DNA from: an uncultured Cytophagia bacterium
GTDB lineage: Bacteria > Zhuqueibacterota > Zhuqueibacteria > Thermofontimicrobiales > Thermofontimicrobiaceae
Length of the DNA stretch: 64,000 bases
Assembly (NCBI GenBank): GCA_964647995.1
Contig: CAZYNP010000004.1
Span: 124,422-188,421 of the forward strand
Direction of reading: 5' to 3'
Shown here: one piece after another, positions 7,296 through 45,079 of the stretch
Layout: the number at the start of each line of letters is the position of its first letter
Numbering within the stretch: the first letter of the stretch is position 1
Notes under the pieces: generated by a model
Database searches by the model: none
The model's input: only the letters and a program-made list of their open reading frames with translations
What the model was told of the DNA's origin: nothing
Position numbers and translations under genes: made by a program

Positions 7296-8501
7296 TCATT
7301 TAAGTTCTTCTAACTGCAATGGTATGTTCAGGTATTTGCCTTTGCGTATAATCTTTAGTGCCAGCACATCCCCACCCTTGGCATCCGTATCTTCGATGAC
7401 CCGCCAGATGTCACGAGTATTCTGAATTACATGATCGTCGATGCCAATGATGACGTCGCCCACCTGCAAATGCGCTCGTGCAGCCGGACTGCGCGATTCG
7501 ATATTCGAAATAATCACACCTTTAGTACTATTCAATCCCAGGTATCGGGCCAGCGAGTAATTCAGGTTCTCCACTTCCAGGCCGGTCCAAAAACGCCGAT
7601 TGACTCCACCGTATTGCCGCAATTCGCTGACTATTTTTTTGGCGCGATTGATGGGGATCGCAAACCCCAGGCCGATATTGGTGGCATTGCTTTCGCTGCC
7701 CGAATAGATAAACGCATTAATGCCAATAACCTCTCCCAGGCTATTTACCAGCGGCCCGCCGCTGTTGCCGGCATTAATTGCCGCGTCGGTTTGGATCATA
7801 TCTTTGTACACGCGGCTGTCGTCCTGTCGCCCAAAATCCCGGTCGGTGGCGCTAATTATGCCTTGCGATACCGAAGGTTGCCCCATGTCAAACAGGCCGA
7901 AAGGATTGCCGATCGCAATCGCCCATTCGCCAATGATCAAATCATCGGAATCCCCCAGCATGGCATACGGCAGTGATTCTTTGGGATTGATCTTCAACAG
8001 TGCAATATCCGAAATATAATCGCTGGCGACCAATTGAGCATTATACTTTTGTCCATTCGGAAGCGTAACCACGATTTCGGTGGCGCGATTGACTACGTGC
8101 TCATTGGTGACAATATATCCATCCGGCGAAATGATGAAACCCGAGCCCAAACCTTTCACCTGTTGCCGTTGTTCCGGAAAGAAAAACCGGAAAAAGTCGT
8201 CATCATAAACCCATTCCGGTGAGCGCGATTCTCTGATCTGCAGCACATTGATTCCCACCACCGCCGGGCTAACTGCTTTGACCGCTTCCGTAATCACCGT
8301 TTGGCGGGAATTGGCTAATTGCTGACTATTCACCTGGCGCATGGCGACAGATCTGGTGGCAGCTTTACCGCTATTGACTTGCGGTGCGCTGCTCCAATAA
8401 AAAACCGGTTCGCGCATCCGATCCAGCCAGTACGACCAGATCAATATGCCCACCGAGGTGCCAACCACAAAAACCAGGAGATATGATAGGAATTTTTTCA
8501 T
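7296..8501 (-). CDS. HtrA/DegP-family serine protease with PDZ domain (catalytically intact)
   Basis: 401 aa with an N-terminal TM/signal, trypsin-like triad motifs TNEHVV (His), DIALLKI (Asp) and GNSGGPLVN (Ser), and a C-terminal PDZ domain. Confidence 0.9.
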   Translation of the reverse strand: MKKFLSYLLVFVVGTSVGILIWSYWLDRMREPVFYWSSAPQVNSGKAATRSVAMRQVNSQQLANSRQTVITEAVKAVSPAVVGINVLQIRESRSPEWVYDDDFFRFFFPEQRQQVKGLGSGFIISPDGYIVTNEHVVNRATEIVVTLPNGQKYNAQLVASDYISDIALLKINPKESLPYAMLGDSDDLIIGEWAIAIGNPFGLFDMGQPSVSQGIISATDRDFGRQDDSRVYKDMIQTDAAINAGNSGGPLVNSLGEVIGINAFIYSGSESNATNIGLGFAIPINRAKKIVSELRQYGGVNRRFWTGLEVENLNYSLARYLGLNSTKGVIISNIESRSPAARAHLQVGDVIIGIDDHVIQNTRDIWRVIEDTDAKGGDVLALKIIRKGKYLNIPLQLEELK

Positions 8502-14819: not shown

Positions 14820-16253
14820 TCACGGTTCAAACGGCTGACTTTGGTCCAGGCAACGATCACATTCACCCCGCCGACAGTATAGTTTGAATAGATGCAGCAG
14901 TCCCTGCTGCAACGCAGCGGTTTGGATCGGCCGGTTCGCTTTCTCTTCAGCACTGAACAAGGTGTTGATCATCTGGGTGACAATGGAATTATTCGATTGA
15001 CGCGGATAGAGCTCGTAAATATGCCAGATTTTTTCCATCAACGCCGATGCGCCGATCTCTTTACCATGTGCCAATAGCACTGGCAGCACCACATTGATCA
15101 CGATTTCGCGGGCACGCTCCGGACCAACCAGCGTCGCAGATCGACCATCTTCGAGTGGCGATAGATTGTCCTCAAGCTGATAGTGATTGGCCCAATAGCC
15201 ACTCGTTTGACAAATAAAACACTTCTCCAGGCGATTGATCAACTGTCGGGGCTGTTGCTCAGCGTTGGCTACCAAACGATATAATGGTTCCAGGATGCCA
15301 GTGGCCAGAAACGGCTGCAGAATCAAACAGGCGCCAGCCAGCCTTCGGGTGGGAAAATTCGAAGGCCGCATTCTAAAAAATTGCCACTGCTCGCGGCGCA
15401 TCGGTTCCAGGCCCAGCCGTTCTGAAAATTCCCGCCAGGCTTCCTCCAATTGGGGAATGTACTCCTGCGTTTCGCTGTCCTTGATTTTTCGCCAGTCAAA
15501 CGTGGGATCCTGACTGGGCAGCAGTCCCGCCAGCCCCAGCAAAATCCCCAGCGGCCGTCCCAGCATGCCCTCGGCGGAAAGCGGTTGAAATTCCAGCGCC
15601 ACGGCTTCGAAGGGAAATAGATGTGCCAATTGCCGAAATGGTACTTGATTTTTCACATAGCCTAATGCTTCCATCATGCCAACATATAGAATCTGATTCC
15701 AGGAGCAGGTCTCTCGCAGTTCGGCAAAGCGATCGGCCTTGTCCTGCAGGCGCTGGTGCCCCCAATATTCAATCAATTTCAATTTATAGTCGATGCTTTT
15801 TAGGCGATGTGGACAGGAGCGTGCGGGCAAAGTTGGCGAGACGCCCAACTGATACTGTTGGTGCAAGGCAAAAAATTTCTCTTCGGGGATATCAACAAAC
15901 ACCTGGGCGACCACCGCATGTCGGTTCAAGCGAATGGCAGGCTCCGACGTATCCACCGGCCCGATGACCAGATGCATGATAACATTGTTATAAGCGGGAT
16001 CGGCATGATGGCTATGCTGATACCAGTCATCTGGCGCCCGATGTATCTCCAGATCGCCCTGATAAAGCGTATCGTCAAGTCGTATGGTGATGTTTTTGAA
16101 ATCCGGGCCAGCATCATCATTCCGTTGGCCCAGCGAAACAATGCCCACGATCTGTCCGTCGATCGTGGTGAGAGGAATCGAGGCAAAATAGCCGCGCTCC
16201 CATAATTGGTAGATCAACTGCTCGGCAATCACACTGCGATCATCCACCTTCAT
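14820..16253 (-). CDS. conserved hypothetical protein, DUF2851-like
   Basis: 477 aa ending in a CxxC...C cluster (CRRGECDRCLDQS). Family recalled from memory; function unknown. Confidence 0.5.
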   Translation of the reverse strand: MKVDDRSVIAEQLIYQLWERGYFASIPLTTIDGQIVGIVSLGQRNDDAGPDFKNITIRLDDTLYQGDLEIHRAPDDWYQHSHHADPAYNNVIMHLVIGPVDTSEPAIRLNRHAVVAQVFVDIPEEKFFALHQQYQLGVSPTLPARSCPHRLKSIDYKLKLIEYWGHQRLQDKADRFAELRETCSWNQILYVGMMEALGYVKNQVPFRQLAHLFPFEAVALEFQPLSAEGMLGRPLGILLGLAGLLPSQDPTFDWRKIKDSETQEYIPQLEEAWREFSERLGLEPMRREQWQFFRMRPSNFPTRRLAGACLILQPFLATGILEPLYRLVANAEQQPRQLINRLEKCFICQTSGYWANHYQLEDNLSPLEDGRSATLVGPERAREIVINVVLPVLLAHGKEIGASALMEKIWHIYELYPRQSNNSIVTQMINTLFSAEEKANRPIQTAALQQGLLHLFKLYCRRGECDRCLDQSQPFEP

Positions 16254-34240: not shown

Positions 34241-35131
34241 CTATGGTTTTGGCGATTGGCGGGATACGGTGGCTGCTGGCGTGACGGCTTTCATTTGATA
34301 GAGCACAATGCCATCGCAAACTGGAGTGAGGATATGCTTTTTTCGCTTGCGCGTGTACCGATAGAAATCTTCGCGCACCACGCGGCGGGTATATTTGGAA
34401 GCATGGACAAAATCTTTCCCGTCGATCAGGATGCCCTCATGCCCGACAATGATTCCACTTTTGAACAATTCCTTTGGTATCACCGCAACCCCACAGACCG
34501 CTGGCAGTTGCTGCAACAGTTCGCGCGTAATATGCGCTTTGGGGAGATATGCCAGTTCCACCTTCTTTTCCCAATCGATTGGTAGAAAATGGGTGCCGTC
34601 TTCCTGCCGGTTCAGGACCAGCCGCACAGTGTCCAGCCTGGTGGGATCAGCCACGGCTGAGGTTATTATTTCGAAATAAGGCGAGGTAAGCAGTCGATCC
34701 GAGGTGAAATGAATGCGGTTGCGATACGAAATCGGGTTTTGTCCAACGGACGGCGGATAGTAGTTCAAAAAAGTCATCAGCGACTCGGCCTCATGATAAC
34801 TTTGGGCACTGGCCAGCGCCATCGTGGTTAAAACGAACGCGGTGCAGTTGGTTTTATCGAGGCGGAAGATCGGTGCCGGTTCGATGCCACTGCCCTCGCC
34901 GATGGCTTGCCAATCGAATGGCGTTCCCAGCCGTGCCAGAGCAATCAGCCGAATCCGGTCTTCGAATTGCGGCTGTTCTCGCTGCAGGGTCTGTAACAAT
35001 TGATCGATTTCCTGAATCGAGAGCTGCTGCAAATTTTTATGAAGGTGCAGGGAATTGGAGGAATTTTTCATTGCGGACGCGGGAGCGAACAGATACATCA
35101 TTCCAGCGATCAACCATACAAATCTACCCAT
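34241..35131 (-). CDS. DUF1460-like putative amidase/transglutaminase-fold protein
   Basis: 296 aa with a signal peptide. DKTNCTAFVLTTMALA resembles the catalytic-Cys region of DUF1460/NlpC-like proteins. Assignment is tentative. Confidence 0.45.
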   Translation of the reverse strand: MGRFVWLIAGMMYLFAPASAMKNSSNSLHLHKNLQQLSIQEIDQLLQTLQREQPQFEDRIRLIALARLGTPFDWQAIGEGSGIEPAPIFRLDKTNCTAFVLTTMALASAQSYHEAESLMTFLNYYPPSVGQNPISYRNRIHFTSDRLLTSPYFEIITSAVADPTRLDTVRLVLNRQEDGTHFLPIDWEKKVELAYLPKAHITRELLQQLPAVCGVAVIPKELFKSGIIVGHEGILIDGKDFVHASKYTRRVVREDFYRYTRKRKKHILTPVCDGIVLYQMKAVTPAATVSRQSPKP

Positions 35132-35165
35132 AACGTCTCAAACTTTTCGAATTCAGAAACAAAAA

Positions 35166-35190
35166 ACCCATCGGTTCGCGATGGGTTTGA
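35166..35190 (-). terminator. intrinsic terminator after tRNA-Pro
   Basis: Minus strand: caaacccatcgcgaaccgatggg followed by tttttt. Confidence 0.55.
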
Positions 35191-35199
35191 CAAATTTGC

Positions 35200-35277
35200 T
35201 GGTCGGGGCGCCGAGATTTGAACTCGGGACCTCCTGCTCCCAAAGCAGGCGCGCTACCCGGACTGCGCTACGCCCCG
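35200..35277 (-). tRNA. tRNA-Pro (anticodon TGG)
   Basis: Reverse complement is CGGGGCGTAGCGCAGTCCGGGTAGCGCGCCTGCTTTGGGAGCAGGAGGTCCCGAGTTCAAATCTCGGCGCCCCGACCA. It has a 7-bp acceptor stem, D loop, anticodon loop TTTGGGA, T-loop GTTCAAATC and an encoded CCA. Confidence 0.9.
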
Positions 35278-35439
35278 GGCGTGAAACCGAAAAAATATAA
35301 TGTATTTCGTGGCCAAATGCAAGACTTTTTTTGAAGCATCCTTATGACCAAATCTTTGCCAACCACTTCCAGTCCTGATCAAATCAGCACGGTCTTGATC
35401 GAGATCGGTAGCTTTCACAGGCATTTCAGCAATGGCTGA

Positions 35440-36042
35440 TCATTGCTGTGAGCTTGCAAGCCACTGCTCTAAAATGACGCGTGCCTTTTGCAGTGCCAGC
35501 CCGCGATGACTGATATCATTTTTGAGGGCCAAGGGCATTTCAGCAAAAGTTTGTCCCAGTTTGGGGACATAAAACACTGGATCATAGCCGAATCCACCCT
35601 GGCCCCGCCTTTCTTCGCTAATAATTCCCTCACAGACCCCTTCGACAACCTGCTCCATCGTCGGACTTACTAACGCCACGACACAGCGGAAGCGTGCGGT
35701 TCGTTGCTGGCGGGGAACGCCGTTCAGCCGTTGCAACAATTTTTCGACATTGTCATCGTAGGTCGCATCCGGACCGGCAAACCGACTGGAATAAACGCCA
35801 GGCGCACCACCCAAAAAATCCACCTCTAATCCCGTGTCATCGGCCAGACAGAGCAGTTGAGTATAATCACATACCGCACGAGCTTTTTTTATGGCATTTT
35901 CGGCCACCGTTTGACCATCTTCGACCAGGGCCGGAATTTCTGGGAACCGATCGAGGGTTAACATTTCCATGTTCAAGCCCTCCAGTGCGGCCCGGATTTC
36001 ATTTATCTTGTCAGCATTGCGTGTGGCCAGAACCAGCTTCAA
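35440..36042 (-). CDS. rdgB: non-canonical purine NTP pyrophosphatase (RdgB/HAM1)
   Basis: 200 aa, MKLVLATRNADKINEI...GFGYDPVF...SHRG, the HAM1 signature. Confidence 0.9.
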   Translation of the reverse strand: MKLVLATRNADKINEIRAALEGLNMEMLTLDRFPEIPALVEDGQTVAENAIKKARAVCDYTQLLCLADDTGLEVDFLGGAPGVYSSRFAGPDATYDDNVEKLLQRLNGVPRQQRTARFRCVVALVSPTMEQVVEGVCEGIISEERRGQGGFGYDPVFYVPKLGQTFAEMPLALKNDISHRGLALQKARVILEQWLASSQQ

Positions 36043-36127
36043 TCTATCCTCTTCGTTGGCAAAATATCTTTCACTTCATTGGGGTCGGCTTGCAATCAAA
36101 AGCAATTGCACTGCCGTGATGGCTTCA

Positions 36128-36325
36128 TTAAGCGTATACTTCTTTCTCGTTGCACTTGCAAACGAGAACAAATTTCTCCTTAAAGCGCCAGGTAGTGGCA
36201 TTTTTCTCGGAATCCACCAGTTTGATAACCGTGGCCACTTCGCCGCATTTGGGGCACTGCCTGGATTTGAGAGCTTCTTTGGTTCCTTTGGCAAGTTTTG
36301 CTACAAAACTTCGATCTTTCGCCAT
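36128..36325 (-). CDS. small zinc-ribbon protein
   Basis: 65 aa with CPKCG...CKC. Uncharacterised. Confidence 0.45.
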   Translation of the reverse strand: MAKDRSFVAKLAKGTKEALKSRQCPKCGEVATVIKLVDSEKNATTWRFKEKFVLVCKCNEKEVYA

Positions 36326-36500
36326 AATGATTCTCCGTTCAAAATTACAATCATCATCGTTCCTAATTTTAGCCCACTAATTTAACAAAAAATATGAAAA
36401 AGTCAATCAAAATTTCTAACGTCCTCGAATCGCTAATGAAATTCTGGGATATTTTCTTGCAGTAGATGTCGAACCAGCAACGCAGCAAGTTACGCTAAGG

Positions 36501-37730
36501 CTATCGAGGCGACGCCTGTTGCAGTTGGCTCTTGAGACTGCGAATCTCGTTCTCCATCTGAATCATGCGTGAGTTCATCTGCTGGAATCGAGTCGGAGAG
36601 AGAATTATCGGATATGGTGGAACGGTCTCGCTACTGGGACTTACTGGCCGGGAGGCAAGCTGTCGAGGCTTTTGGGCATTAAAACCGAGCGGCCACTTTT
36701 TTTCGATGCAGGGAAAAACTTTGAGCTGACGATTGTCACGGCTAAAATTTATGGACACGTGGGTTCCGGGCTTGGTTTGCTCGATCAATGTCCGGGCGAT
36801 GTCGATCGTGGCCAGGTCAGATTCATTAAATTGGAGCAAGCGATCGCCTTTTTTCAAGCCGACGCGTGCAGCAGGTGATCCCACTTTCACATCTTTGACC
36901 ACCAGACTGTTATTGCGAATGGAATCCGGATCGAATTCGACGCCCAACCAGCCTTTTTGCTCCCGATGCATCTGAATAACTTCATTCACCATCTGCCTGA
37001 CTTGATTGATGGGCAATGCCATGCCGGTCTGCCCCCCATAATCGAGATATTTGGGTGCCAAAGTGGCGGCATCGGTCTCCAATTGGGCGGTGACAATCCC
37101 AATAATCTCCCCTTTGATATTGAAAACAGGACCGCCAATGTTCCCGGGATTTACCGGTGCCGAGAAAATAAAAATGCCGTCGGCCGTGTAGCCATTGATC
37201 AAGCCAAACGAGGCAAACGGCGAAATCCCCATCGAATTACCTAATACCATGACCAATGAATACAGCAACACCTTGTCCGAATCACCAATGGTAGCAGGCG
37301 TTATATTTTCAGCCGCAATTTTCAGTACCGCCAGACCGGTGGCTTCGTGAACGCCGATATATTCGGCATTAAATTCCCGACCGTCCCACACGGTGACCCG
37401 GATGCTTTCAAATTCTGCCAGAATACTACCGCGTGTAATTATGTAGCCATCCGCATTGTAAATAATTCCGGAGCCAACGGTCCAGAGGTTATCCTTCTTT
37501 TCCTGGCGATTATCTTTCAAAAACGAGAGTAATCCCTCATCTCGATCGATCACATACGAATGCGATGATTTGGCGGAAACCGTGACCACCGACAATTTGG
37601 TGAGATCGATCAGCGCTGAAATTTCTCCCTGCATTTTTTCCAACATCGAAACATTTTGGGAAAAAGTGGGCGAGACCAAATTCGCGACCGCAATGATATT
37701 AACGAAGACCACGATAATCAGCTTTTTCAT
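36501..37730 (-). CDS. HtrA-like trypsin-fold + PDZ protein with all three catalytic residues substituted (predicted pseudo-protease)
   Basis: 409 aa with a signal peptide. Aligned to the intact HtrA at 7296-8501: TNEHVV is ITRGSIL here (His to Ser), DIALLKI is GLAVLKI (Asp to Gly), and GNSGGP is GNIGGP (Ser to Ile). The PDZ region is retained. Confidence 0.75.
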   Translation of the reverse strand: MKKLIIVVFVNIIAVANLVSPTFSQNVSMLEKMQGEISALIDLTKLSVVTVSAKSSHSYVIDRDEGLLSFLKDNRQEKKDNLWTVGSGIIYNADGYIITRGSILAEFESIRVTVWDGREFNAEYIGVHEATGLAVLKIAAENITPATIGDSDKVLLYSLVMVLGNSMGISPFASFGLINGYTADGIFIFSAPVNPGNIGGPVFNIKGEIIGIVTAQLETDAATLAPKYLDYGGQTGMALPINQVRQMVNEVIQMHREQKGWLGVEFDPDSIRNNSLVVKDVKVGSPAARVGLKKGDRLLQFNESDLATIDIARTLIEQTKPGTHVSINFSRDNRQLKVFPCIEKKWPLGFNAQKPRQLASRPVSPSSETVPPYPIILSPTRFQQMNSRMIQMENEIRSLKSQLQQASPR

Positions 37731-37880
37731 ACCAATCTGCAGGTTACTCTATATATAGCCTAAACCCTGAGTTAATGAAGCAGTACCAAAGCAGCACATA
37801 CATTAACCCAGGGTTTAGAAAATTATGTTAAGCATTCGCGTTCATTGAACATTTGAAGAATATAACAATCATTAGTGACA

Positions 37881-38483
37881 TCAATAGACGATTTCCGCTC
37901 TTCTCTCGATCGTACCGGTGCGGGTGGCGATGGATCGGCTGGAGTCTGCCGGCAAACGTTGATCAAACTGCTGATAGGCGCCAGCGCTGACCTGCACAGG
38001 ATTCTGGGTGGTTATACGGGTAGCAGGTTGCTTTTCGAGCATATAAAAAATGACATTCACTGAGTCGACCTGCTGGTAACGACCGCCATAATATTCGGGA
38101 TTGACGTAAGCATCAGGAGGATACAGTTGACGTTGCCGGTTCAATTGCGAAAAGATGGTGAACACCGCCAGCACGATCAGCGTCATAGCCACGGCATAAG
38201 CTGGTACGCGAAACTTCCAGGAAGCAAAAAAACGATCGTGTTGTCGACGTGCCAGGCCATTTTCCAGTCGGATGCGGGCGCGCAAAATGGTATCAAAATC
38301 GGGTGATACCGCGACCTGAGGCAATGCCTTCAATTCCGAGATCAGGTTGCGCAGTTCCTTCGTCGTGCTGCTACAGCGGACACACTCGTTGAAGTGATAT
38401 TCCATCTCCTGCTTGCTCTGCGGGTCAAGCCCTCCCTCGATATAGTCAGACATCAACTCTTTGAACCGTTGACAACTATCCAT
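37881..38483 (-). CDS. zf-HC2 anti-sigma factor (single-pass membrane)
   Basis: 200 aa. N-terminal zinc motif CQRFKELMSDYIEGGL...HFNECVRC (HxxxCxxC) and one TM helix (VPAYAVAMTLIVLAVFTIF). Sits directly downstream of the ECF sigma gene. Confidence 0.65.
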   Translation of the reverse strand: MDSCQRFKELMSDYIEGGLDPQSKQEMEYHFNECVRCSSTTKELRNLISELKALPQVAVSPDFDTILRARIRLENGLARRQHDRFFASWKFRVPAYAVAMTLIVLAVFTIFSQLNRQRQLYPPDAYVNPEYYGGRYQQVDSVNVIFYMLEKQPATRITTQNPVQVSAGAYQQFDQRLPADSSRSIATRTGTIERRAEIVY

Positions 38484-38631
38484 TTTCTTTCCTCAAGATT
38501 TTGATTTAGGGTTCTAATAATTTCTATTTCAATATCATCAATATGCCAGAATCTCCTGGCACAACCAATTCACCTGTTACTTAGATACCCTCACCTCAGC
38601 AGCATTTTCCATCATCTAAAAGGATCGAATG

Positions 38632-39216
38632 CTAACGCTCTAAGAGACTTTTCAACCGCTCTTGCAATTTCAGTCGACCGCGATTGACTCGCGACTTCAC
38701 TGTCCCCAGCGGAATATCAACTATCTGACTGATTTCTTCATAAGAAAGCTGTTGCACATCCCGGAGCAAGATAACCTCCCGGAACTTAGGAGAAAGGTCA
38801 TTAATCTCGCGATGAATGATTTCCTCTTTCATGCGACTATCGACATCTTTTTCGGGATTGAACGCTTCATCCGAGATGTCATAATCTTTCTCATTATATC
38901 CCAGGTCTGATATCGAAAAAAATTTCCTCCTTTTCCGTTTTCTGAGTTCTGTTTTGGCTAAATTACCAGCAATGGTATAAATCCACGTAGAAAACTTGGC
39001 AACTTTCTGGTACGCCCTTCGATTACGATAAACTCGAAGAAACGTCTCTTGAACCAGATCCTCGGCTTCCTCGGCATTGCCGAGAAAACGGTATACAAAA
39101 TTCATCAGTTGGTTCTTATAGCGTTTGACAATTAAGTCAAAGGCATATAAATCGCCATTCTGGAATCGTTCAATTAAATCTTCGTCTGTAGGTTTTACAC
39201 CCTTTTCTTCTTCCAT
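38632..39216 (-). CDS. ECF-type RNA polymerase sigma factor (sigma-70 family)
   Basis: 194 aa with region 2 (DLVQETFLRVYRN...FSTWIYTIAGNLA) and region 4 (SYEEISQIVDIPLGTVKSRVNRGRLKL). Confidence 0.9.
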   Translation of the reverse strand: MEEEKGVKPTDEDLIERFQNGDLYAFDLIVKRYKNQLMNFVYRFLGNAEEAEDLVQETFLRVYRNRRAYQKVAKFSTWIYTIAGNLAKTELRKRKRRKFFSISDLGYNEKDYDISDEAFNPEKDVDSRMKEEIIHREINDLSPKFREVILLRDVQQLSYEEISQIVDIPLGTVKSRVNRGRLKLQERLKSLLER

Positions 39217-39290
39217 TCGCTTAACCTACCAAAGTTTTTAACACAGTCCTAGAATCAAAAGTTCCCGAACATTGCAACTTGAAAAAATTG

Positions 39291-40316
39291 TCAACGATGA
39301 ATGAGTTTATAAAGCAACAGTTCCATAACCAGCGGACTACGCATATAGCCTGTCTTTAGATGATAATCGGCCTCGCTTAAGCAATGAAATGACGCTCTCA
39401 GTTGTTCTGGCGTAAAGTTCTTTACCTGCCGCAGCAAATCATTTACAAAGTAATTGGCAAGTCCGGTCACCTTCGCCAGCTCAGCGGGTGTTCGTTTTCC
39501 CTGCGCCACACACTCGCGCACCTTGAGCAAATTGACAAAATGCCGCACGAGTTGAATGACTATGCCCGTAGGTTCATCGCCTTGCTGGAGCAAATGCTGC
39601 AAAATTGTTATCCCCCGTGCCAGATGCCGCTCACCTATCGCATTGCAGAGCTCGAACACATTGAATTGTTTGGAAATGCTGGAGACGCTTTCGACATCGG
39701 CGACGGTGATGCGGTTGCGTGGCAGAATATTGATCTGGATCTTTTCTAATTCATTCACCAGGTTTTGCAAAGAATTGCCGATCTGCGCCTGCAGCAATGT
39801 CATCGCCGGAGCCTCGATCTCCAGCTTTCTGACTTTTAAATAATTTTGAACCCATCCCACGACTTCGCTATCGTATAGCTGGCGACAATCAATTGCTGTC
39901 GTCTGGGCCGCCAACGTCGACAGCGTCTTGTTCGAGCGCAATTTCTCCGCCATGGTCATTATCAAGCAGGAGGTTGCCGACGGGCTGGAAATATAATTCA
40001 GTAAATGTTTCAAATCCGCCGGTTTGAAATCCTGGATTTCCTTGATTATGACCAATCTTCGGCTGTCCATCATCGGGTACGAGCGAACCACCTGGATCAC
40101 CCGCTCGATTTCGACATCATTGGCATAAAATAAGTCCAAATTGAAATCGCGTGTGGATGGATTGACCGCGATTTTTATGATGCGACCGATCAGATCATCG
40201 TGGAGATATTTTTCTTCACCGAAAATAAAATAGTTGTTCGCCAGCACGCCGCTGTTGAGTTGTTCGACCGCGGCGGCGTACGTAAGCGCATTTTTTGTCG
40301 ATTGCAGTGGTGGCAT
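39291..40316 (-). CDS. holA: DNA polymerase III subunit delta
   Basis: 341 aa with a clamp-loader delta-like N-terminus (YFIFGEEKYLHDDLIGRI) and overall architecture consistent with HolA. Confidence 0.75.
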   Translation of the reverse strand: MPPLQSTKNALTYAAAVEQLNSGVLANNYFIFGEEKYLHDDLIGRIIKIAVNPSTRDFNLDLFYANDVEIERVIQVVRSYPMMDSRRLVIIKEIQDFKPADLKHLLNYISSPSATSCLIMTMAEKLRSNKTLSTLAAQTTAIDCRQLYDSEVVGWVQNYLKVRKLEIEAPAMTLLQAQIGNSLQNLVNELEKIQINILPRNRITVADVESVSSISKQFNVFELCNAIGERHLARGITILQHLLQQGDEPTGIVIQLVRHFVNLLKVRECVAQGKRTPAELAKVTGLANYFVNDLLRQVKNFTPEQLRASFHCLSEADYHLKTGYMRSPLVMELLLYKLIHR

Positions 40317-40845
40317 ATTATCTTCTTAAACTCGCTCGGTAGCACCTCCAAACGCCTACCGTAATAGATGCGGCTGGCCATCGAATGGTGCGATTCCATC
40401 CCAAACCATGAATACCTGATAGCTGGTTTTTTGCTGCTTAACATTCAGACGCGTCAGCGGTGATAACAAGATCGGTCCAATCTAATTGTTGGTCATTGGA
40501 AGCCAATCGGGACACGCCAGCCCCGAAACAATTCAAGCATCACCGGTGGCTCCTCCCGCCGCTGCGAATCGGGATCATTTTATTAGTTAACTTTTCAGGG
40601 CTAATATAGGTTATTTGTGGGAATATTGCAAGAAAAAAAACTGATCTGATCAATCCTCAGGCCACTCTAAATTTACGGGGCAGTTGGTCAAGAACTATTG
40701 GTCAATCCGTCAAATGAGAGGAAACGGCTATCCCCGGCCCATTCATCTTCCTCGGCGCTGCCCCAATTCGCCTGGCGTCAATACTACGGCGCAAATTTTC
40801 GAGCCAATTTTCGCACCCCAAAAGCTCCGTCGCACCAAAATCGAT

Positions 40846-41650: not shown

Positions 41651-44600
41651 TCAGAATAATTGCAATTGTGCATCATCGACTGGCGTTTCTTTGTCTCGGG
41701 GTCGGTCCTTGAGCTGTGCCTGACGTTGTTGCTTTAGCGCTTCTTCGATGTCGGCTAAAAATCGCGAGGGTCGATTATTTTTTCTCTCACCAAATAGGAA
41801 GCGGCTTTTGGTATACAATAGAATCAATCGTTGTTTGGCGCGGGTCATTCCCACGTAGAATAGCCGCCGCTCTTCTTCGATGTCGCCAGTAGTAGCCTGC
41901 GGGTGCCGATAAGGAATCAGCCCTTCCTCACAGCCGGCAATAAAAACAACCGGGAACTCTAAGCCTTTGGCGGCATGCAAGGTTAACAACGCCACTTTTT
42001 CCGCTTGCGGATTGTAGACATCCGTCTCTCTCTGAAGCGCGATCTGCTCCAGGAAATCACTCAAATTCACGGCTGCCGCATCGGCATATTCCCGCAACAA
42101 TTGCCAATAATATTGTCGCCGTCGGTCTTTTTTATAATACGATAGCAATCCGAATTGCGTCATTATGCGGGAGAGAATTTCGCCAACCGGGGCATCAGGA
42201 ACGAAAGCCATTATGTCCTTCATTCGACCGACCCAGCGCTCGATCGGCTGCTTCTGGGCTGCACTCAGCGGCGCAATCTGGCGACAGCGCTGCATGGCTT
42301 CCCAGAGCGACAGCGCATTGGTACGTTGGTAGCTCACCAATGATCGCAAAGTCGACTCGCCAATGCCGGTTGGCGCAATCTGGAGTATCCGCTGCAAATC
42401 CAGATCCGCCTGGGGCTGCTGCAGCACCTTCAAAAACGAAACCATTTCTTTCACTTCGGGAATTTCATAAAACGGCTGTTCGCCAACCGTCTGGTAGGGA
42501 ATCCCGGAACGAAGAAATGCCTCTTCCAGCGCAGCGACCTGGGCCCCCAATCGATAGAGTACCGCAATCTCGGAAAAACCAGTACAGGTTTGGGATTCCT
42601 CGTCGCCAGCACGACCAGAATCTACCGAAAAGAAGCTGGTGGCCCCCATCATCTTCTCGATCTGATGCACGATAGTCTCGGCTTCGGATTTCTCAGTTGG
42701 CGTCTGAAAAATGTCAATTTGAGTCCGGGAGATCAGGGGTGACCAGAGATGGTAATTCTGATGGTCTGGATTTTTGGAAATCACCTGCGTCGATGCCTTG
42801 AGAATCGTTGCCACCGACCGATAGTTCTTTTCCAGCCGAATGACCCGGCAGGCCGGAAAGTCCTGTTCAAATTGCAGGAAGAAACGACGGTCCGAGCCGC
42901 GAAAACCATAGATCGCCTGATCGGGATCGCCAATGGCACAGATGTGGGTCTCCGGAGTCGTCAGCGAGCGTAACAATTCATATTGCGGCCGATTGATATC
43001 CTGATATTCATCGATAAACAACCATCGATACCGCTGTTGATATTTCTTGAGCACGGCAGGCTGCGCTTGAAATAGGCGGATGGGCATTAAAATCAAATCA
43101 TCATAATCAAACGCCTGTTGCGCGTGGAGCGCTTGCTGATATTGATCGCACCAGGAACTCAACCGCGCATCAGTTGACGCAGGTGCTTCCGGGTCAGAAT
43201 GGGCAGGAGACAGGCTGTTTTTGAACCGGGAAATTTGATCGGCCAGCTCTCGTATCTCTTTGTTGGATAATGTCGGTGCGATTGTTTTTAGCAAATTTAT
43301 CACGTCGCTCTCGCCGTAGATCAAAAAGCTCGCCGGATAATTTATCGTTCGCGCCTCCTGCCTCAAAATGGAAGCTCCCAGAGCATGGAATGTTTTAATG
43401 GTTATGGCGCTGGTGGTGCTCTCACCCAACACCGCCAGCAGTCGCGACCGCATCTCCTGAGCGGCACGATTGGTAAAAGTAATTGCCAATATCTGATCCG
43501 GCGGGACACCCTTGTTTTGAATCCAAAACGCGATGCGCTGCGTGAGGGTATGAGTTTTGCCGGTGCCGGGCCCGGCAACTATCAATAACGAAGAACCGTC
43601 ATATTCTACTGCCTCCTGCTGGCGGCGATTGAGGCCGGTCGCGCCTTCTTCATCAGATTCGTGCGGCGCCGCAATTGCGGCCTCTGGAGTAACCTCCGGC
43701 GGGGGTTGTTGCTGACCGTAGGCCAACTCCTGATCTTTTATCCCCGACGGCGCGGGTTGATCGCCTGCGGTTGGCAACACCGAGGCATCATCGCCAAAAA
43801 AGAAGGATTGCGATAAAAACCGCTGTCGCTCGTCATCCGAGAAGAGTTTGATGGTGCCAAACTCGCCATCATAGCCGGCAGCAATCTGGACCTCTTTCTG
43901 GCGCATACGTCGAATTCCCTCGGCCAACAAGCTCCCGCCGGCTCGCTGGAGTTCACTGAGCGGAATCTCCGTCAGGATCGTTATTTCGGAACCGAATTGG
44001 CGCAGTAGCTTTTCCAGCTTTGCCGCGACCGCCTTGGTGCCCGCACCGACCGCTAAGATCTCCGCCAAAACTTCCGGCAACGGTATCAGGCTATGGAAAG
44101 GCCTGGCAGCAGACGGTTGTGAGCCGAACGGACGGTCGGCCAATGCTTCCACGCGATTGAGGACGCCAACGGTCACGCGCTTGCCGCAAACCGGACAGTG
44201 GCCCTGATGCGCGGCAGTCTCAGCCGGAGTGAGCCGCACCTGGCAGCTCCGATGACCATCCAGATGATACTTGCCCTCCTCCGGGAAAAATTCAATCGTA
44301 CCTAAGAAGTGTCCCGAACTGCCGTTTTTTAACGCTGTTAGCATCGCAGGATAGGAAAACTCACCATCGAATATATTTGCCTCGCGTCCCAGCTTTGCCG
44401 GTGAATGGGCATCCGAATTCGAGACCAGGGTGAATCGATCCAGTTGGGAAAGCATCCAATTCATCGGCGGATCTGACGAGAGACCGGTTTCCAGGGCGAA
44501 AATTTGCGGCGTGAGGTCCTCGAAGCAATCACCAATGGAATCGAAGCCGGATTTTGAGCCCAGCACGGAAAACCAGGGCGTCCAGATATGCGCGGGAATT

Positions 44601-45079
44601 AAAAACGACCATTCGTGCGATTGGAGCACCATTTCCAGCAGATCCCGAGCATCGAGCCCCAGGATGGGCCGGCCGTCAGATCGGATATTGCCGATTTTTT
44701 CCAATGCCACTTGAAATTTTTGGGCAACATCAAGGGAGGGAAAAAAGACGATGTTATGAATTTTGCGGACGTGATCGCCTTTTTTATAAATATTGCTAAT
44801 CTCGCCCGACAGCACAAAACGGACCTCGCGGTGACATGCTGCTGGGACGGTGGCATCGATGGCGCGGGCATAATCAGATTTCAGGCGAAAGAAACCCGGC
44901 TCGGCCGGTTCCAATTTGGTTTTGATCTCATCCAACCAGCCCGGATGCGTGATATCGCCGCTGGCAACCACCTGAATCCCCTTTAGCTGTGCCCAGCGGT
45001 GCAACTGTTCGAATGTCAGATCCTTGCTGGTAGCTCGGGAAAAGTGAGAATGAATATGCAAATCAGCGATGAATTTCAT
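41651..45079 (-). CDS. fusion protein: N-terminal EndoQ-like PHP-domain endonuclease + Zn ribbon (~aa 1-430), Pro/Gln-rich linker, C-terminal UvrD/PcrA-like SF1 helicase (~aa 500-1142)
   Basis: N-terminus: MKFIADLHIHSHFSRA, GDITHPGW, IPAHIWTPWFS, SNSDAHSPAKLGREANIF, GKYHLDGHRSC...CPVCGKR, RPFHSLIPLPEVLA and FGSEITIL match EndoQ/TIGR00375 as I remember it. C-terminus: Q-motif LNRRQQEAV, Walker A AGPGTGKTHTL, FTNRAAQEM, Walker B DEYQDI, GDPDQAIYGFRG, NYRS, TLHAAKGLEFPVVFIAG and YVGMTRAKQRL, i.e. SF1 motifs Q through VI. Confidence 0.85.
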   Translation of the reverse strand: MKFIADLHIHSHFSRATSKDLTFEQLHRWAQLKGIQVVASGDITHPGWLDEIKTKLEPAEPGFFRLKSDYARAIDATVPAACHREVRFVLSGEISNIYKKGDHVRKIHNIVFFPSLDVAQKFQVALEKIGNIRSDGRPILGLDARDLLEMVLQSHEWSFLIPAHIWTPWFSVLGSKSGFDSIGDCFEDLTPQIFALETGLSSDPPMNWMLSQLDRFTLVSNSDAHSPAKLGREANIFDGEFSYPAMLTALKNGSSGHFLGTIEFFPEEGKYHLDGHRSCQVRLTPAETAAHQGHCPVCGKRVTVGVLNRVEALADRPFGSQPSAARPFHSLIPLPEVLAEILAVGAGTKAVAAKLEKLLRQFGSEITILTEIPLSELQRAGGSLLAEGIRRMRQKEVQIAAGYDGEFGTIKLFSDDERQRFLSQSFFFGDDASVLPTAGDQPAPSGIKDQELAYGQQQPPPEVTPEAAIAAPHESDEEGATGLNRRQQEAVEYDGSSLLIVAGPGTGKTHTLTQRIAFWIQNKGVPPDQILAITFTNRAAQEMRSRLLAVLGESTTSAITIKTFHALGASILRQEARTINYPASFLIYGESDVINLLKTIAPTLSNKEIRELADQISRFKNSLSPAHSDPEAPASTDARLSSWCDQYQQALHAQQAFDYDDLILMPIRLFQAQPAVLKKYQQRYRWLFIDEYQDINRPQYELLRSLTTPETHICAIGDPDQAIYGFRGSDRRFFLQFEQDFPACRVIRLEKNYRSVATILKASTQVISKNPDHQNYHLWSPLISRTQIDIFQTPTEKSEAETIVHQIEKMMGATSFFSVDSGRAGDEESQTCTGFSEIAVLYRLGAQVAALEEAFLRSGIPYQTVGEQPFYEIPEVKEMVSFLKVLQQPQADLDLQRILQIAPTGIGESTLRSLVSYQRTNALSLWEAMQRCRQIAPLSAAQKQPIERWVGRMKDIMAFVPDAPVGEILSRIMTQFGLLSYYKKDRRRQYYWQLLREYADAAAVNLSDFLEQIALQRETDVYNPQAEKVALLTLHAAKGLEFPVVFIAGCEEGLIPYRHPQATTGDIEEERRLFYVGMTRAKQRLILLYTKSRFLFGERKNNRPSRFLADIEEALKQQRQAQLKDRPRDKETPVDDAQLQLF

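What the first reader, a model, noticed from the sequence alone, without database searches (positions are those of the whole stretch)
36128..39216. ECF sigma / zf-HC2 anti-sigma / catalytically dead HtrA-PDZ module
An ECF sigma factor, a membrane anti-sigma factor, a 409-aa HtrA-like protein and a 65-aa zinc-ribbon protein lie on one strand (38632-39216, 37881-38483, 36501-37730 and 36128-36325). In the HtrA-like protein the His, Asp and Ser of the trypsin-fold catalytic triad are all replaced (Ser, Gly, Ile) while the PDZ domain is kept. An intact HtrA paralogue exists at 7296-8501. In the sigma-E paradigm, DegS, an active HtrA homologue, starts anti-sigma proteolysis. An obligatorily inactive HtrA-like partner suggests a PDZ-based sensor or anti-sigma stabiliser rather than a protease.
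Basis: seen in the sequence. Interest (0 to 1): 0.6.

Follow-up and report, generated by a model that had tools for sequence, protein, structure and literature searches.

The report
Dead HtrA partner of ECF anti-sigma
An envelope-stress sigma/anti-sigma gene pair in an uncultivated bacterium (KSB1 phylum) is always followed by an HtrA-type protease homologue that lost its catalytic residues long ago but kept its peptide-binding PDZ domain, and the anti-sigma factor ends in a conserved aromatic residue that looks like a ligand for that domain, pointing to a sensor that binds rather than cuts.

Summary
All four ORFs are at the stated coordinates. The 409-aa HtrA-like protein has S102/G132/I198 in place of His/Asp/Ser, and the paralogue at 7296-8501 is intact (H135/D165/S247).

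The loss is ancient. 86 of 88 triad-less cluster representatives form one pure clade, and the gene is under strong purifying selection (dN/dS 0.04). In every locus with enough flank (about 34, from KSB1/Zhuqueibacterota and Poribacteria) it lies directly after an ECF sigma and a zf-HC2 anti-sigma gene. Three canonical HtrAs do not.

New evidence:
- The anti-sigma periplasmic part is a disordered tail of about 80 aa, and 48 of 50 tails end in Tyr/Phe.
- The PDZ carboxylate-binding loop is conserved.
- A C-terminal helix is specific to the clade.
- The operon carries a conserved promoter, GGAACTT-N16-GTTAAA.
- A conserved RNA hairpin precedes the dead-HtrA gene.

The 65-aa Cys-rich protein pairs with the downstream Ham1 gene and is not part of the module.

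The best reading is a non-catalytic, RseB/MucB-like regulator that holds the anti-sigma tail through its PDZ domain. This is inferred, not shown. The closest known system is the rpoE-rseA-mucD operon, which has an active protease. I rate it a new variant of a known kind.

The parts
39238..39265 (-). ECF-type promoter GGAACTT-N16-GTTAA(A), about 20 nt upstream of the sigma start codon; inferred autoregulatory operon promoter
   Evidence: One exact match in the 64-kb window against 0.00 expected. The same motif occurs once per locus at the same distance upstream of sigma in 15 related loci. It resembles the sigmaE-type -35 GAACTT described for rpoE-rseA-mucD operons (PMC4229105).
38632..39216 (-). 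ECF (group IV) sigma factor, 194 aa; extremely conserved
   Evidence: Sigma70_r2 5e-22, Sigma70_r4_2 3e-15. TIGR02937 108.9 bits against a cutoff of 42.9; below every SigW/RpoE equivalog cutoff. 63-100% identity across KSB1 loci where holA is 34-85%. dN/dS 0.004.
37881..38483 (-). Single-pass zf-HC2 (ZAS-type) anti-sigma factor, 200 aa: cytoplasmic helical domain (aa 1-81, H30-x3-C34-x2-C37), TM helix (aa ~93-118), disordered periplasmic tail (aa 119-200)
   Evidence: zf-HC2 5e-08, 33.3 bits against a cutoff of 22.2. H30/C34/C37 are invariant. TM segment by hydropathy in all 28 orthologues. AF2 model: helices 2-15, 21-52, 61-81, 95-118; residues 119-200 have pLDDT 33-48 and no secondary structure.
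37884..37895 (-). C-terminal tetrapeptide E-I-V-Y of the anti-sigma factor; proposed PDZ ligand
   Evidence: 48 of 50 non-identical orthologues end in Y (33) or F (15) and 2 end in L, although the tail is only 16-38% identical beyond the closest relative. Six neighbouring protein families show at most one Y each at the C-terminus.
37759..37819 (-). Conserved intercistronic stem-loop (17-19 bp stem, arms ~AAACCCTGGTTTAAT / ATTAAACCAGGGTTT) between the anti-sigma and pseudo-HtrA genes
   Evidence: MFE -41 kcal/mol, z -3.4, 0 of 200 shuffles fold as well. Present in at least 12 KSB1-type loci. 17 consensus pairs, 5 with compensatory changes, and several G-U pairs that only work on the sense RNA strand. 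Only this site in the window. No U-tract follows it.
36501..37730 (-). Triad-less HtrA-fold protein (pseudo-HtrA), 409 aa: signal peptide (aa 1-24, ...TFS/Q), trypsin-like domain (aa ~45-250; S102, G132, I198 at the triad positions), one PDZ (aa ~258-340; loop G260-W-L-G-V264), linker, clade-specific C-terminal helix (aa 379-406)
   Evidence: domains, triad. (AF2 pLDDT 76.9, pTM 0.70). (Foldseek top hits AlgW, DegQ, DegP, DegS, MucD; E 2e-26). (monophyletic triad-less clade). (dN/dS 0.042). (PDZ loop conserved; helix in 63 of 88 clade members against 0 of 60 canonical).
36128..36325 (-). 65-aa CxxC...CxC protein; a neighbour, NOT part of the core module (travels with Ham1/RdgB at 35440-36042)
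   Evidence: Four Cys are conserved. KSB1-only 'hypothetical protein', 36 clusters. Abuts Ham1 by 2-20 nt in L008, L010, L033 and L037, and stays with Ham1 when an OMP gene is inserted after the pseudo-HtrA. Absent from the distant trios L011-L013.
7296..8501 (-). Canonical HtrA paralogue (H135/D165/S247), N-terminal membrane anchor, one PDZ: a candidate active (DegS/AlgW-like) protease of the same cell; not linked to a sigma gene
   Evidence: TIGR02037 343 bits, DegS model 245 bits. Hydrophobic segment aa 4-22 with no obvious cleavage site. Flanked by an adenylosuccinate-lyase-like ORF and another metabolic ORF, with no sigma gene nearby.

Best explanation
The unit is an autoregulated three-gene envelope-stress operon: ECF sigma, a single-pass zf-HC2 anti-sigma factor, and a secreted HtrA-fold protein that cannot cleave peptides (triad positions S/G/I).

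Proposed mechanism. The dead HtrA acts as a periplasmic regulatory partner of the anti-sigma factor, functionally like RseB/MucB. Its PDZ domain captures the conserved aromatic C-terminus of the anti-sigma's disordered ~80-aa periplasmic tail. Other short conserved tail motifs may lie in the inactive protease cleft. Binding shields the tail from a genuine site-1 or tail-specific protease, possibly the membrane-anchored active HtrA paralogue. When competing ligands appear, most plausibly exposed hydrophobic or aromatic C-termini of unassembled envelope proteins, the tail is released and the anti-sigma is degraded. The sigma factor is then freed and transcribes its own operon from GGAACTT-N16-GTTAAA.

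Shown here: loss of the triad; antiquity and monophyly of the clade; purifying selection; invariant gene order; the conserved promoter; the disordered tail; the terminal Y/F; the intact PDZ loop.

Inferred, not shown: physical binding; the sign of regulation (shield versus presenter); the nature of the signal; the identity of the protease.
For: (1) Dead but maintained. S102/G132/I198. Across 88 triad-less representatives the His position is S in 51 and the Asp position is G in 50, while the Ser position is unconstrained. 86 of 88 form one pure clade. dN/dS is 0.042, tighter than holA at 0.108. No His is conserved anywhere.

(2) Obligate linkage. Sigma -> zf-HC2 anti-sigma -> pseudo-HtrA in 10 of 10 genome loci, 14 of 14 metagenome loci with upstream DNA and 10 of 10 independently sampled divergent members, including a Poribacteria MAG with unrelated flanks. 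0 of 3 canonical HtrAs are so linked.

(3) A matching ligand and receptor. The anti-sigma tail is disordered and poorly conserved at 16-38% identity, yet it ends in Y/F in 48 of 50 sequences, with no such bias in six control families. The PDZ carboxylate-binding loop G-W/Y-L/I-G-V/I is as conserved as in active HtrAs, with the final Gly in 87 of 88. The fold is nearest to AlgW/DegS/DegQ, whose PDZ domains bind C-terminal Y-x-F-type peptides (PDB titles 3gdv and 6ew9).

(4) Position. The third gene sits where rseB/mucB or mucD sit in known sigmaE-type operons (PMC4229105; bioRxiv 10.1101/2024.05.28.596254).

(5) A conserved ECF-type promoter occurs once per locus, upstream of sigma.
Against: There is no direct evidence of binding.

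The terminal aromatic residue could equally be read by another PDZ protein: the active HtrA paralogue, a Prc/Ctp-type protease, or RseP. None of these was found next to the module.

Two distant lineages (L012, L013) end in ...GGGL rather than Y/F, with the N-Y motif 9 residues upstream.

The one beta-barrel OMP I could inspect (in L033) ends ...SYKLK, so OMP C-terminal mimicry has no support from it.

Co-transcription is inferred only from gene order and a single promoter. In the window the genes are 148-150 nt apart, and a strong hairpin precedes the pseudo-HtrA gene.

The AF2 model is of medium confidence (pLDDT 76.9).

The sign of regulation cannot be deduced from sequence.
Confidence: 0.5

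Rival explanations
1. Regulon output, not regulator. The dead HtrA is a protease-free holdase/chaperone for unfolded envelope proteins, as DegP keeps chaperone activity without its active-site Ser. It is simply co-expressed with the stress sigma factor and does not touch the anti-sigma factor.
For: It lies downstream in a probably autoregulated operon, so it would be induced by stress. The HtrA fold and the substrate-binding loops are strongly conserved. A hairpin before the gene could tune its level separately from sigma and anti-sigma. An active HtrA (MucD) occupies the same operon position in Xanthomonas and Stenotrophomonas.
Against: It does not explain why the otherwise divergent, disordered anti-sigma tail keeps a terminal Y/F in 48 of 50 sequences. 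It does not explain why the pairing is invariant across two phyla with overlapping or abutting genes in many loci. It does not explain why catalysis was lost once and never regained in a quality-control factor. The two roles are not mutually exclusive.
Confidence: 0.2
2. Positive adaptor or presenter. The dead HtrA binds the anti-sigma tail and delivers it to an active protease, for example by forming mixed trimers with the active HtrA paralogue. It would then be required for activation of the sigma factor, not for its inhibition.
For: The same binding evidence as the main model. An active, membrane-anchored single-PDZ HtrA exists in the same genome. HtrA proteins are obligate trimers (general knowledge), so pseudo/active hetero-oligomers are conceivable.
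Against: No evidence for hetero-oligomers. The paralogues are only 27% identical. The pseudo-HtrA has its own clade-specific C-terminal helix, which suggests a distinct assembly. The known third-gene partners in sigmaE-type operons (RseB/MucB, MucD) are negative regulators.
Confidence: 0.17
3. Still an enzyme. The protein retains hydrolytic activity through a non-canonical catalytic arrangement, for example the invariant S166 in GNSMG or another Ser with a Lys.
For: Family-invariant S87, S166 and S285, and near-invariant K45, K137 and K293, exist. The oxyanion-hole-like PGNxGxP motif is retained.
Against: No conserved His anywhere. The nucleophile position is freely variable: S, N, A, I, G, V, T. 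S87 and S285 lie in motifs shared with canonical HtrAs (GSG, GSPA), where they are not catalytic. No trypsin-fold precedent is known to me.
Confidence: 0.03

Closest known systems
rpoE-rseA-mucD operon of Xanthomonas campestris / Stenotrophomonas maltophilia, and algU-mucA-mucB-mucC-mucD of Pseudomonas aeruginosa
   Same: An autoregulated ECF sigma operon in the order sigma, single-pass anti-sigma, then an HtrA-family periplasmic protein. The -35 element is similar (GAACTT). MucD acts negatively on the pathway (PMC4229105; bioRxiv 10.1101/2024.05.28.596254).
   Different: MucD is an active DegP-type protease with two PDZ domains and an intact triad (from my own knowledge). Here the third gene is a monophyletic triad-less clade with one PDZ and an extra C-terminal helix. 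The anti-sigma is a zf-HC2 type with a disordered tail ending in Y/F. No RseB/MucB gene is present.
E. coli sigmaE pathway: RseA / RseB / DegS / RseP
   Same: A single-pass anti-sigma with a periplasmic domain. An HtrA-family protein with one PDZ that reads C-terminal aromatic (Y-x-F) peptides. A periplasmic protein (RseB) that binds the anti-sigma's periplasmic domain and shields it from cleavage. The structural neighbours of the model include DegS and AlgW bound to such peptides.
   Different: DegS is catalytically active, membrane-anchored and encoded elsewhere in the genome. RseB has an unrelated fold, and Pfam gives no MucB_RseB hit for this protein. Here the aromatic C-terminus belongs to the anti-sigma factor itself, and the HtrA-fold protein cannot cleave.
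Mycobacterium tuberculosis sigE-rseA-htrA(Rv1223)-tatB locus (from my own knowledge; not verified with the tools here)
   Same: An ECF sigma, a ZAS-type (HxxxCxxC) anti-sigma and an HtrA-family gene lie in a row.
   Different: RseA of M. tuberculosis is cytoplasmic, and the HtrA there is an active, essential protease. No pseudo-protease is involved.
MamO, the degenerate HtrA/trypsin-fold pseudo-protease of magnetotactic bacteria
   Same: A precedent for a bacterial HtrA-family member that lost catalysis and was repurposed.
   Different: A different clade (NCBIfam MamO model 27.6 bits against a cutoff of 800), a different context (magnetosome island, metal binding) and no link to sigma factors.

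Membership tests
HtrA/DegP/DegS family (MEROPS S1C serine endopeptidases) | Trypsin-like protease fold followed by at least one PDZ domain | tested here: met
   Trypsin_2 73 bits and PDZ_2 41.9 bits, both above cutoff. PDB sequence hits to DegQ/DegP/AlgW/DegS at E 1e-18 to 1e-32. AF2 model matches AlgW, DegQ, DegP and DegS at E ~1e-25.
HtrA/DegP/DegS family (MEROPS S1C serine endopeptidases) | Catalytic triad His-Asp-Ser | tested here: not met
   S102/G132/I198 at the three positions. No conserved His in the family. It is homologous in fold but not a member as an enzyme.
HtrA/DegP/DegS family (MEROPS S1C serine endopeptidases) | Score above the curated cutoff of the NCBIfam Do-family model (TIGR02037) or the DegS equivalog | tested here: not met
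   155.9 bits against a cutoff of 416.2; DegS model 111.3 against 422.95. The intact paralogue scores 343.4, also below the cutoff but more than twice as high.
HtrA/DegP/DegS family (MEROPS S1C serine endopeptidases) | Proteolytic activity | not testable with these tools
   Needs purified protein and a substrate assay.
ECF (group IV) sigma factors | Only sigma-2 and sigma-4 domains; matches the sigma70-ECF superfamily model | tested here: met
   Sigma70_r2 + Sigma70_r4_2, 194 aa. TIGR02937 108.9 bits against a cutoff of 42.9.
ECF (group IV) sigma factors | Co-located cognate anti-sigma gene and an autoregulatory promoter with an AAC-containing -35 element | tested here: met
   The anti-sigma gene is directly downstream in all loci. 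GGAACTT-N16-GTTAAA is conserved upstream of sigma. This is sequence-level only; transcription was not measured.
RpoE (sigmaE) or SigW equivalogs | Score above the equivalog cutoff | tested here: not met
   SigW PRK09641 157.5 against 209; RpoE TIGR02939 138.3 against 236.15. Related to both, but an orthologue of neither.
zf-HC2 / ZAS-type class I anti-sigma factors | N-terminal anti-sigma domain with the H-x3-C-x2-C motif | tested here: met
   zf-HC2 33.3 bits against a cutoff of 22.2. H30, C34 and C37 are invariant in 18 orthologues.
zf-HC2 / ZAS-type class I anti-sigma factors | Binding and inhibition of the cognate sigma factor | not testable with these tools
   Inferred from gene pairing only.
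RseB/MucB family | Sequence or fold homology to MucB_RseB | tested here: not met
   Pfam scan of the 409-aa protein returns only Trypsin and PDZ families, and the structural neighbours are all HtrAs. Any resemblance is functional and positional, not homology.
rpoE-rseA-mucD-type operon | Gene order sigma / anti-sigma / HtrA-family gene under a sigmaE-type promoter | tested here: met
   compared with PMC4229105.
rpoE-rseA-mucD-type operon | The third gene encodes an active DegP-type protease | tested here: not met
   The triad is absent.
MamO-type pseudo-proteases | Membership of the MamO equivalog | tested here: not met
   27.6 bits against a cutoff of 800.

The most novel reading that the evidence does not exclude
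The system inverts the DegS logic. Instead of a protease whose PDZ domain is switched on by aromatic C-termini of unassembled outer-membrane proteins, a protease-dead HtrA holds the anti-sigma factor by a built-in aromatic C-terminus that mimics such a ligand. Stress is sensed by competitive displacement: free envelope-protein C-termini evict the anti-sigma tail from the PDZ domain, exposing it to degradation. This would be a new class of ECF signal input, a pseudo-enzyme receptor, conserved across at least two candidate phyla (KSB1/Zhuqueibacterota and Poribacteria).
Probability: 0.27. Interest if true: 0.8.

Novelty: new variant of a known kind. Interest (0 to 1): 0.62.

Why it matters
ECF sigma factors are the largest family of alternative sigma factors, and how their anti-sigma factors sense signals is known for only a few groups.

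This is a large (at least 86 clusters at 50% identity), monophyletic family that public databases label 'S1C family serine protease' or 'serine protease Do'. It cannot be a serine protease, and it is hard-wired to a sigma/anti-sigma pair.

If the binding model holds, it adds a pseudo-enzyme receptor to the list of ECF input mechanisms. It also gives a clean natural example of a protease evolving into a binding-only regulator of the pathway its active relatives trigger. And it corrects a systematic misannotation.

The hypothesis can be tested directly with two recombinant proteins and one peptide, even though the organisms are uncultivated.

Tried and rejected
(1) Complex prediction. I built a paired alignment of pseudo-HtrA fused through a Gly-Ser linker to its own anti-sigma tail (A2).

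(2) Regulon search. The promoter motif, strict or relaxed, has no second copy in the 64-kb window, so nothing can be said about the regulon.

(3) A generic sigma-70 promoter and terminator scan of 35300-40500 found no more sites than shuffled sequence.

(4) Rfam. Only a tRNA in 35000-40500; no known RNA family matches the intergenic gaps. The other two long intergenic gaps do not fold better than shuffles (z -1.3 and -0.3).

(5) Other RIP components (RseP, Prc/Ctp) were not found among ten large genes of the window.

(6) Literature. Four full-text searches and the ECF reclassification paper (no mention of HtrA, PDZ or peptidase in the main text; supplements not held) gave no description of a dead-HtrA/ECF module.

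(7) OMP mimicry check. The single beta-barrel OMP available (L033) ends ...SYKLK, which gives no support.

(8) 'Decaying pseudogene' is rejected: the ORF is full-length in about 70 close clusters, and dN/dS is 0.04.

(9) 'Shifted triad' is rejected.

(10) The 65-aa protein as a module member is rejected.

(11) The hairpin as a dispersed repeat is rejected: only this site in the window. As an intrinsic terminator it is unlikely, because no U-tract follows.


Full report
**1. What is in the sequence**

Six genes lie in one direction on the minus strand of the window:
- holA (DNA polymerase III delta), 39291-40316
- an ECF sigma factor, 38632-39216
- a zf-HC2 anti-sigma factor, 37881-38483
- a 409-aa Trypsin_2 + PDZ protein, 36501-37730
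- a 65-aa Cys-rich protein, 36128-36325
- Ham1/RdgB, 35440-36042

A 100% identical copy of the 409-aa protein exists on a 272-kb JGI contig, and the closest named relative (89% identity) is from a candidate division KSB1 MAG. KSB1 is now Candidatus Zhuqueibacterota, in the FCB group.

**2. The triad is really gone, and has been for a long time**

Alignments to solved DegQ/peptidase Do structures, to the in-window paralogue and within a 122-sequence alignment all agree:
- His position: S102 (T-R-G-S against T-N-x-H)
- Asp position: G132 (T-G-L-A-V-L against S-D-I-A-L-L)
- Ser position: I198 (G-N-I-G-G-P against G-N-S-G-G-P)

The motifs around each position are retained, so the alignment is unambiguous. 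No alignment column has His in more than 15 of 27 family members, which excludes a displaced triad.

An AlphaFold2 model (pLDDT 76.9, pTM 0.70) has the HtrA fold. Its best structural neighbours are the site-1 protease AlgW, then DegQ, DegP, DegS and MucD (E about 1e-25).

The paralogue at 7296-8501 keeps H135/D165/S247, has an N-terminal hydrophobic anchor and scores more than twice as high on the Do-family model (343 against 156 bits).

An exhaustive profile search of 1.84 billion cluster representatives shows how large the clade is. Among the 150 best hits, 88 lack a canonical triad: the His position is S in 51, the Asp position is G in 50, and the Ser position is unconstrained. In a neighbour-joining tree, 86 of these 88 form a single clade with no canonical member inside. 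That fits one ancient loss.

The gene is under strong purifying selection. dN/dS is 0.042 against L001, compared with 0.108 for holA and 0.134 for Ham1. It is therefore a maintained pseudo-enzyme and not a decaying gene.

**3. The linkage to sigma/anti-sigma is invariant and specific**

The order sigma, then zf-HC2 anti-sigma, then triad-less HtrA is found in:
- all 10 loci recovered from species-representative genomes
- all 14 metagenome loci that have upstream DNA
- all 10 divergent clade members whose contigs I looked up individually

The last group includes proteins only 25-33% identical to the query whose flanking genes are unrelated (no holA, no Ham1), and a MAG labelled Candidatus Poribacteria, a separate candidate phylum.

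Three canonical HtrAs serve as controls: the window paralogue and two HDS hits from the same search. None is next to a sigma gene. The conserved unit is therefore the trio.

The 65-aa protein is different. It is restricted to KSB1-type genomes. It sits 2-20 nt from Ham1 in several loci, stays with Ham1 when another gene is inserted after the pseudo-HtrA, and is absent from the distant trios. I take it out of the module.

**4. New features that bear on mechanism**

(a) Promoter. A motif GGAACTT-N16-GTTAAA lies at a fixed distance upstream of the sigma gene. It occurs exactly once in the window (0.00 expected by chance) and once in each of 15 related loci. It resembles the sigmaE-type promoters of rpoE-rseA-mucD operons (-35 GAACTT; PMC4229105). 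Autoregulation is inferred.

(b) Anti-sigma architecture. All orthologues have an N-terminal helical domain with invariant H30-x3-C34-x2-C37, one TM segment, and a periplasmic part of 74-112 aa. AlphaFold2 predicts residues 119-200 to be disordered (pLDDT 33-48). That tail is only 16-38% identical outside the closest relative, against 30-70% for the cytoplasmic domain.

(c) The tail's C-terminus. Despite that divergence, 48 of 50 non-identical anti-sigma factors end in Tyr (33) or Phe (15), and the other two end in Leu. Typical endings are EIVY, SPIY, VTVTF, YQTSF, ETVEF and RQVSF. The C-termini of six neighbouring protein families show no such bias. The sequences are related, so they are not 50 independent events. 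But they span lineages below 30% identity and two phyla.

(d) The PDZ loop. The carboxylate-binding loop (G-W/Y-L/I-G-V/I) is as conserved in the triad-less clade as in active HtrAs, with the final Gly in 87 of 88.

(e) A clade-specific helix. A heptad-like C-terminal helix (aa 379-406) is present in 63 of 88 clade members and 0 of 60 canonical HtrAs.

(f) The sigma factor is extraordinarily conserved: 63-100% identity where holA is 34-85%, and dN/dS 0.004. That suggests a core, possibly essential, regulator.

(g) An RNA hairpin. A 17-19-bp stem-loop sits between the anti-sigma and pseudo-HtrA genes in the window and in at least 12 related loci. It has compensatory changes at 5 pairs and G-U pairs that work only in the sense RNA. 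It is not followed by a U-tract. It probably sets the relative expression or stability of the two operon halves, but its role is unknown.

**5. Most likely mechanism**

The data fit a periplasmic, non-catalytic partner that binds the anti-sigma tail, with the PDZ domain holding the terminal aromatic residue. The role would be analogous to RseB/MucB, which shield the periplasmic domain of RseA/MucA from DegS/AlgW (bioRxiv 10.1101/2024.05.28.596254).

Loss of catalysis is exactly what such a role requires: the protein has to hold the tail without cutting it. Release would expose the tail to an active protease and start degradation of the anti-sigma factor. The trigger could be competing C-termini of unassembled envelope proteins, which is the class of ligand that DegS/AlgW PDZ domains read (PDB entries).

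Shown: everything in sections 2-4. Inferred: binding, the direction of the effect, the signal, and the protease.

I put 0.5 on this model as worded. I put about 0.85 on the weaker statement that the protein is a dedicated, non-proteolytic component of this sigma/anti-sigma system.

Rivals:
- A stress-induced holdase that does not contact the anti-sigma factor (0.2). It leaves the conserved Y/F terminus unexplained.
- A presenter that delivers the tail to an active HtrA (0.17). It rests on the same binding evidence but predicts the opposite sign.
- Residual non-canonical catalysis (0.03).

Weak points:
- Two distant lineages end in GGGL.
- The one OMP I examined does not end in an aromatic residue.
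- Co-transcription has not been measured.

**6. Comparison with what is known**

The architecture matches the rpoE-rseA-mucD operons of Xanthomonas and Stenotrophomonas and algU-mucABCD of Pseudomonas. In those, the HtrA-family gene encodes an active DegP-type protease.

As a working analogy it is closest to RseB/MucB, but it is not homologous to them.

As a family it is an HtrA homologue that fails the defining catalytic test and the curated score cutoffs. It should not be filed as an S1C protease, although public databases do file it that way.

MamO is a precedent for a repurposed HtrA-fold pseudo-protease, but it is unrelated in clade and context.

Four full-text searches and the ECF reclassification paper gave no description of this arrangement. 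That library is incomplete, so prior mention elsewhere cannot be excluded.

**7. Verdict**

I rate it a new variant of a known kind, namely a sigmaE-type operon whose HtrA-family member is an ancient pseudo-protease paired with an anti-sigma factor that carries a conserved PDZ-ligand-like terminus.

Interest is 0.62. It is a clear, widely conserved and readily testable addition to ECF signalling mechanisms, and it corrects a systematic misannotation. The mechanism remains inferred and the host organisms are uncultivated.

Noticed in passing
window 37759-37819 (-); also L001-L005, L015-L019, L023/L024: A conserved 17-19-bp stem-loop in the anti-sigma -> pseudo-HtrA intergenic gap. The arm sequences are conserved (AAACCCTGGTTTAAT / ATTAAACCAGGGTTT), 5 pairs show compensatory changes, G-U pairs work only on the sense RNA, and no U-tract follows. 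It may be an RNase III or processing site, or an mRNA-stability element that uncouples expression of the two operon halves.
   Followed up: partly
window 38632-39216 (-): The ECF sigma factor is far more conserved than its neighbours: 63-100% identity where holA is 34-85%, and dN/dS 0.004. This includes the region 2-4 linker. That is unusual for an ECF sigma and suggests a core or essential regulator in KSB1.
   Followed up: partly
window 36128-36325 (-) and 35440-36042 (-): A 65-aa CxxC...CxC protein restricted to KSB1-type genomes (36 clusters, all 'hypothetical'; one JGI label reads 'phage FluMu protein Com'). It is always immediately upstream of Ham1/RdgB, often 2-20 nt away, which suggests translational coupling with the nucleotide-pool sanitising enzyme. 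Function unknown.
   Followed up: partly
window 36501-36575 (-), aa 379-406 of the pseudo-HtrA: A heptad-like C-terminal helix (…RMIQMENEIRSLKSQL…) found in 63 of 88 triad-less HtrAs and in none of 60 canonical ones. It is much longer in L035 and absent in the poribacterial-type L012/L013. It could be a trimerising coiled coil or a second contact for the anti-sigma tail.
   Followed up: partly
window 35203-35277 (-): A tRNA gene (Rfam RF00005, 68 bits) between Ham1 and the AmiA-like amidase gene.
   Followed up: no
window 41651-45079 (-): A UvrD/REP-type helicase of 1142 aa whose helicase domains start only at residue ~483. The ~480-aa N-terminal extension has no Pfam match at E <= 1e-5.
   Followed up: no
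L037 3342-3990: In this 2.6-Mb KSB1 contig the anti-sigma gene is split into two overlapping ORFs (138 aa with zf-HC2 and the TM segment; 86 aa ending ...QTVKF). This is either a frameshift or assembly error, or a naturally split anti-sigma.
   Followed up: no
L033 5733-6299: A small OMP_b-brl (beta-barrel outer-membrane protein) gene is inserted between the pseudo-HtrA and the 64-aa/Ham1 pair in one lineage. It ends ...SYKLK rather than in an aromatic residue.
   Followed up: partly
window 14820-16253 (-); L012 980-2386; L038 1-1388: A DUF2851 gene lies next to the poribacterial-type trio (L012, L038), and one also occurs about 20 kb away in this window. This is possibly coincidence.
   Followed up: no
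P0001-P0074, P0147, P0156, P0204 (database names): Public annotations call members of the triad-less clade 'S1C family serine protease', 'serine protease Do' or 'trypsin-like peptidase domain-containing protein'. This is a systematic over-annotation of enzymatic function.
   Followed up: yes
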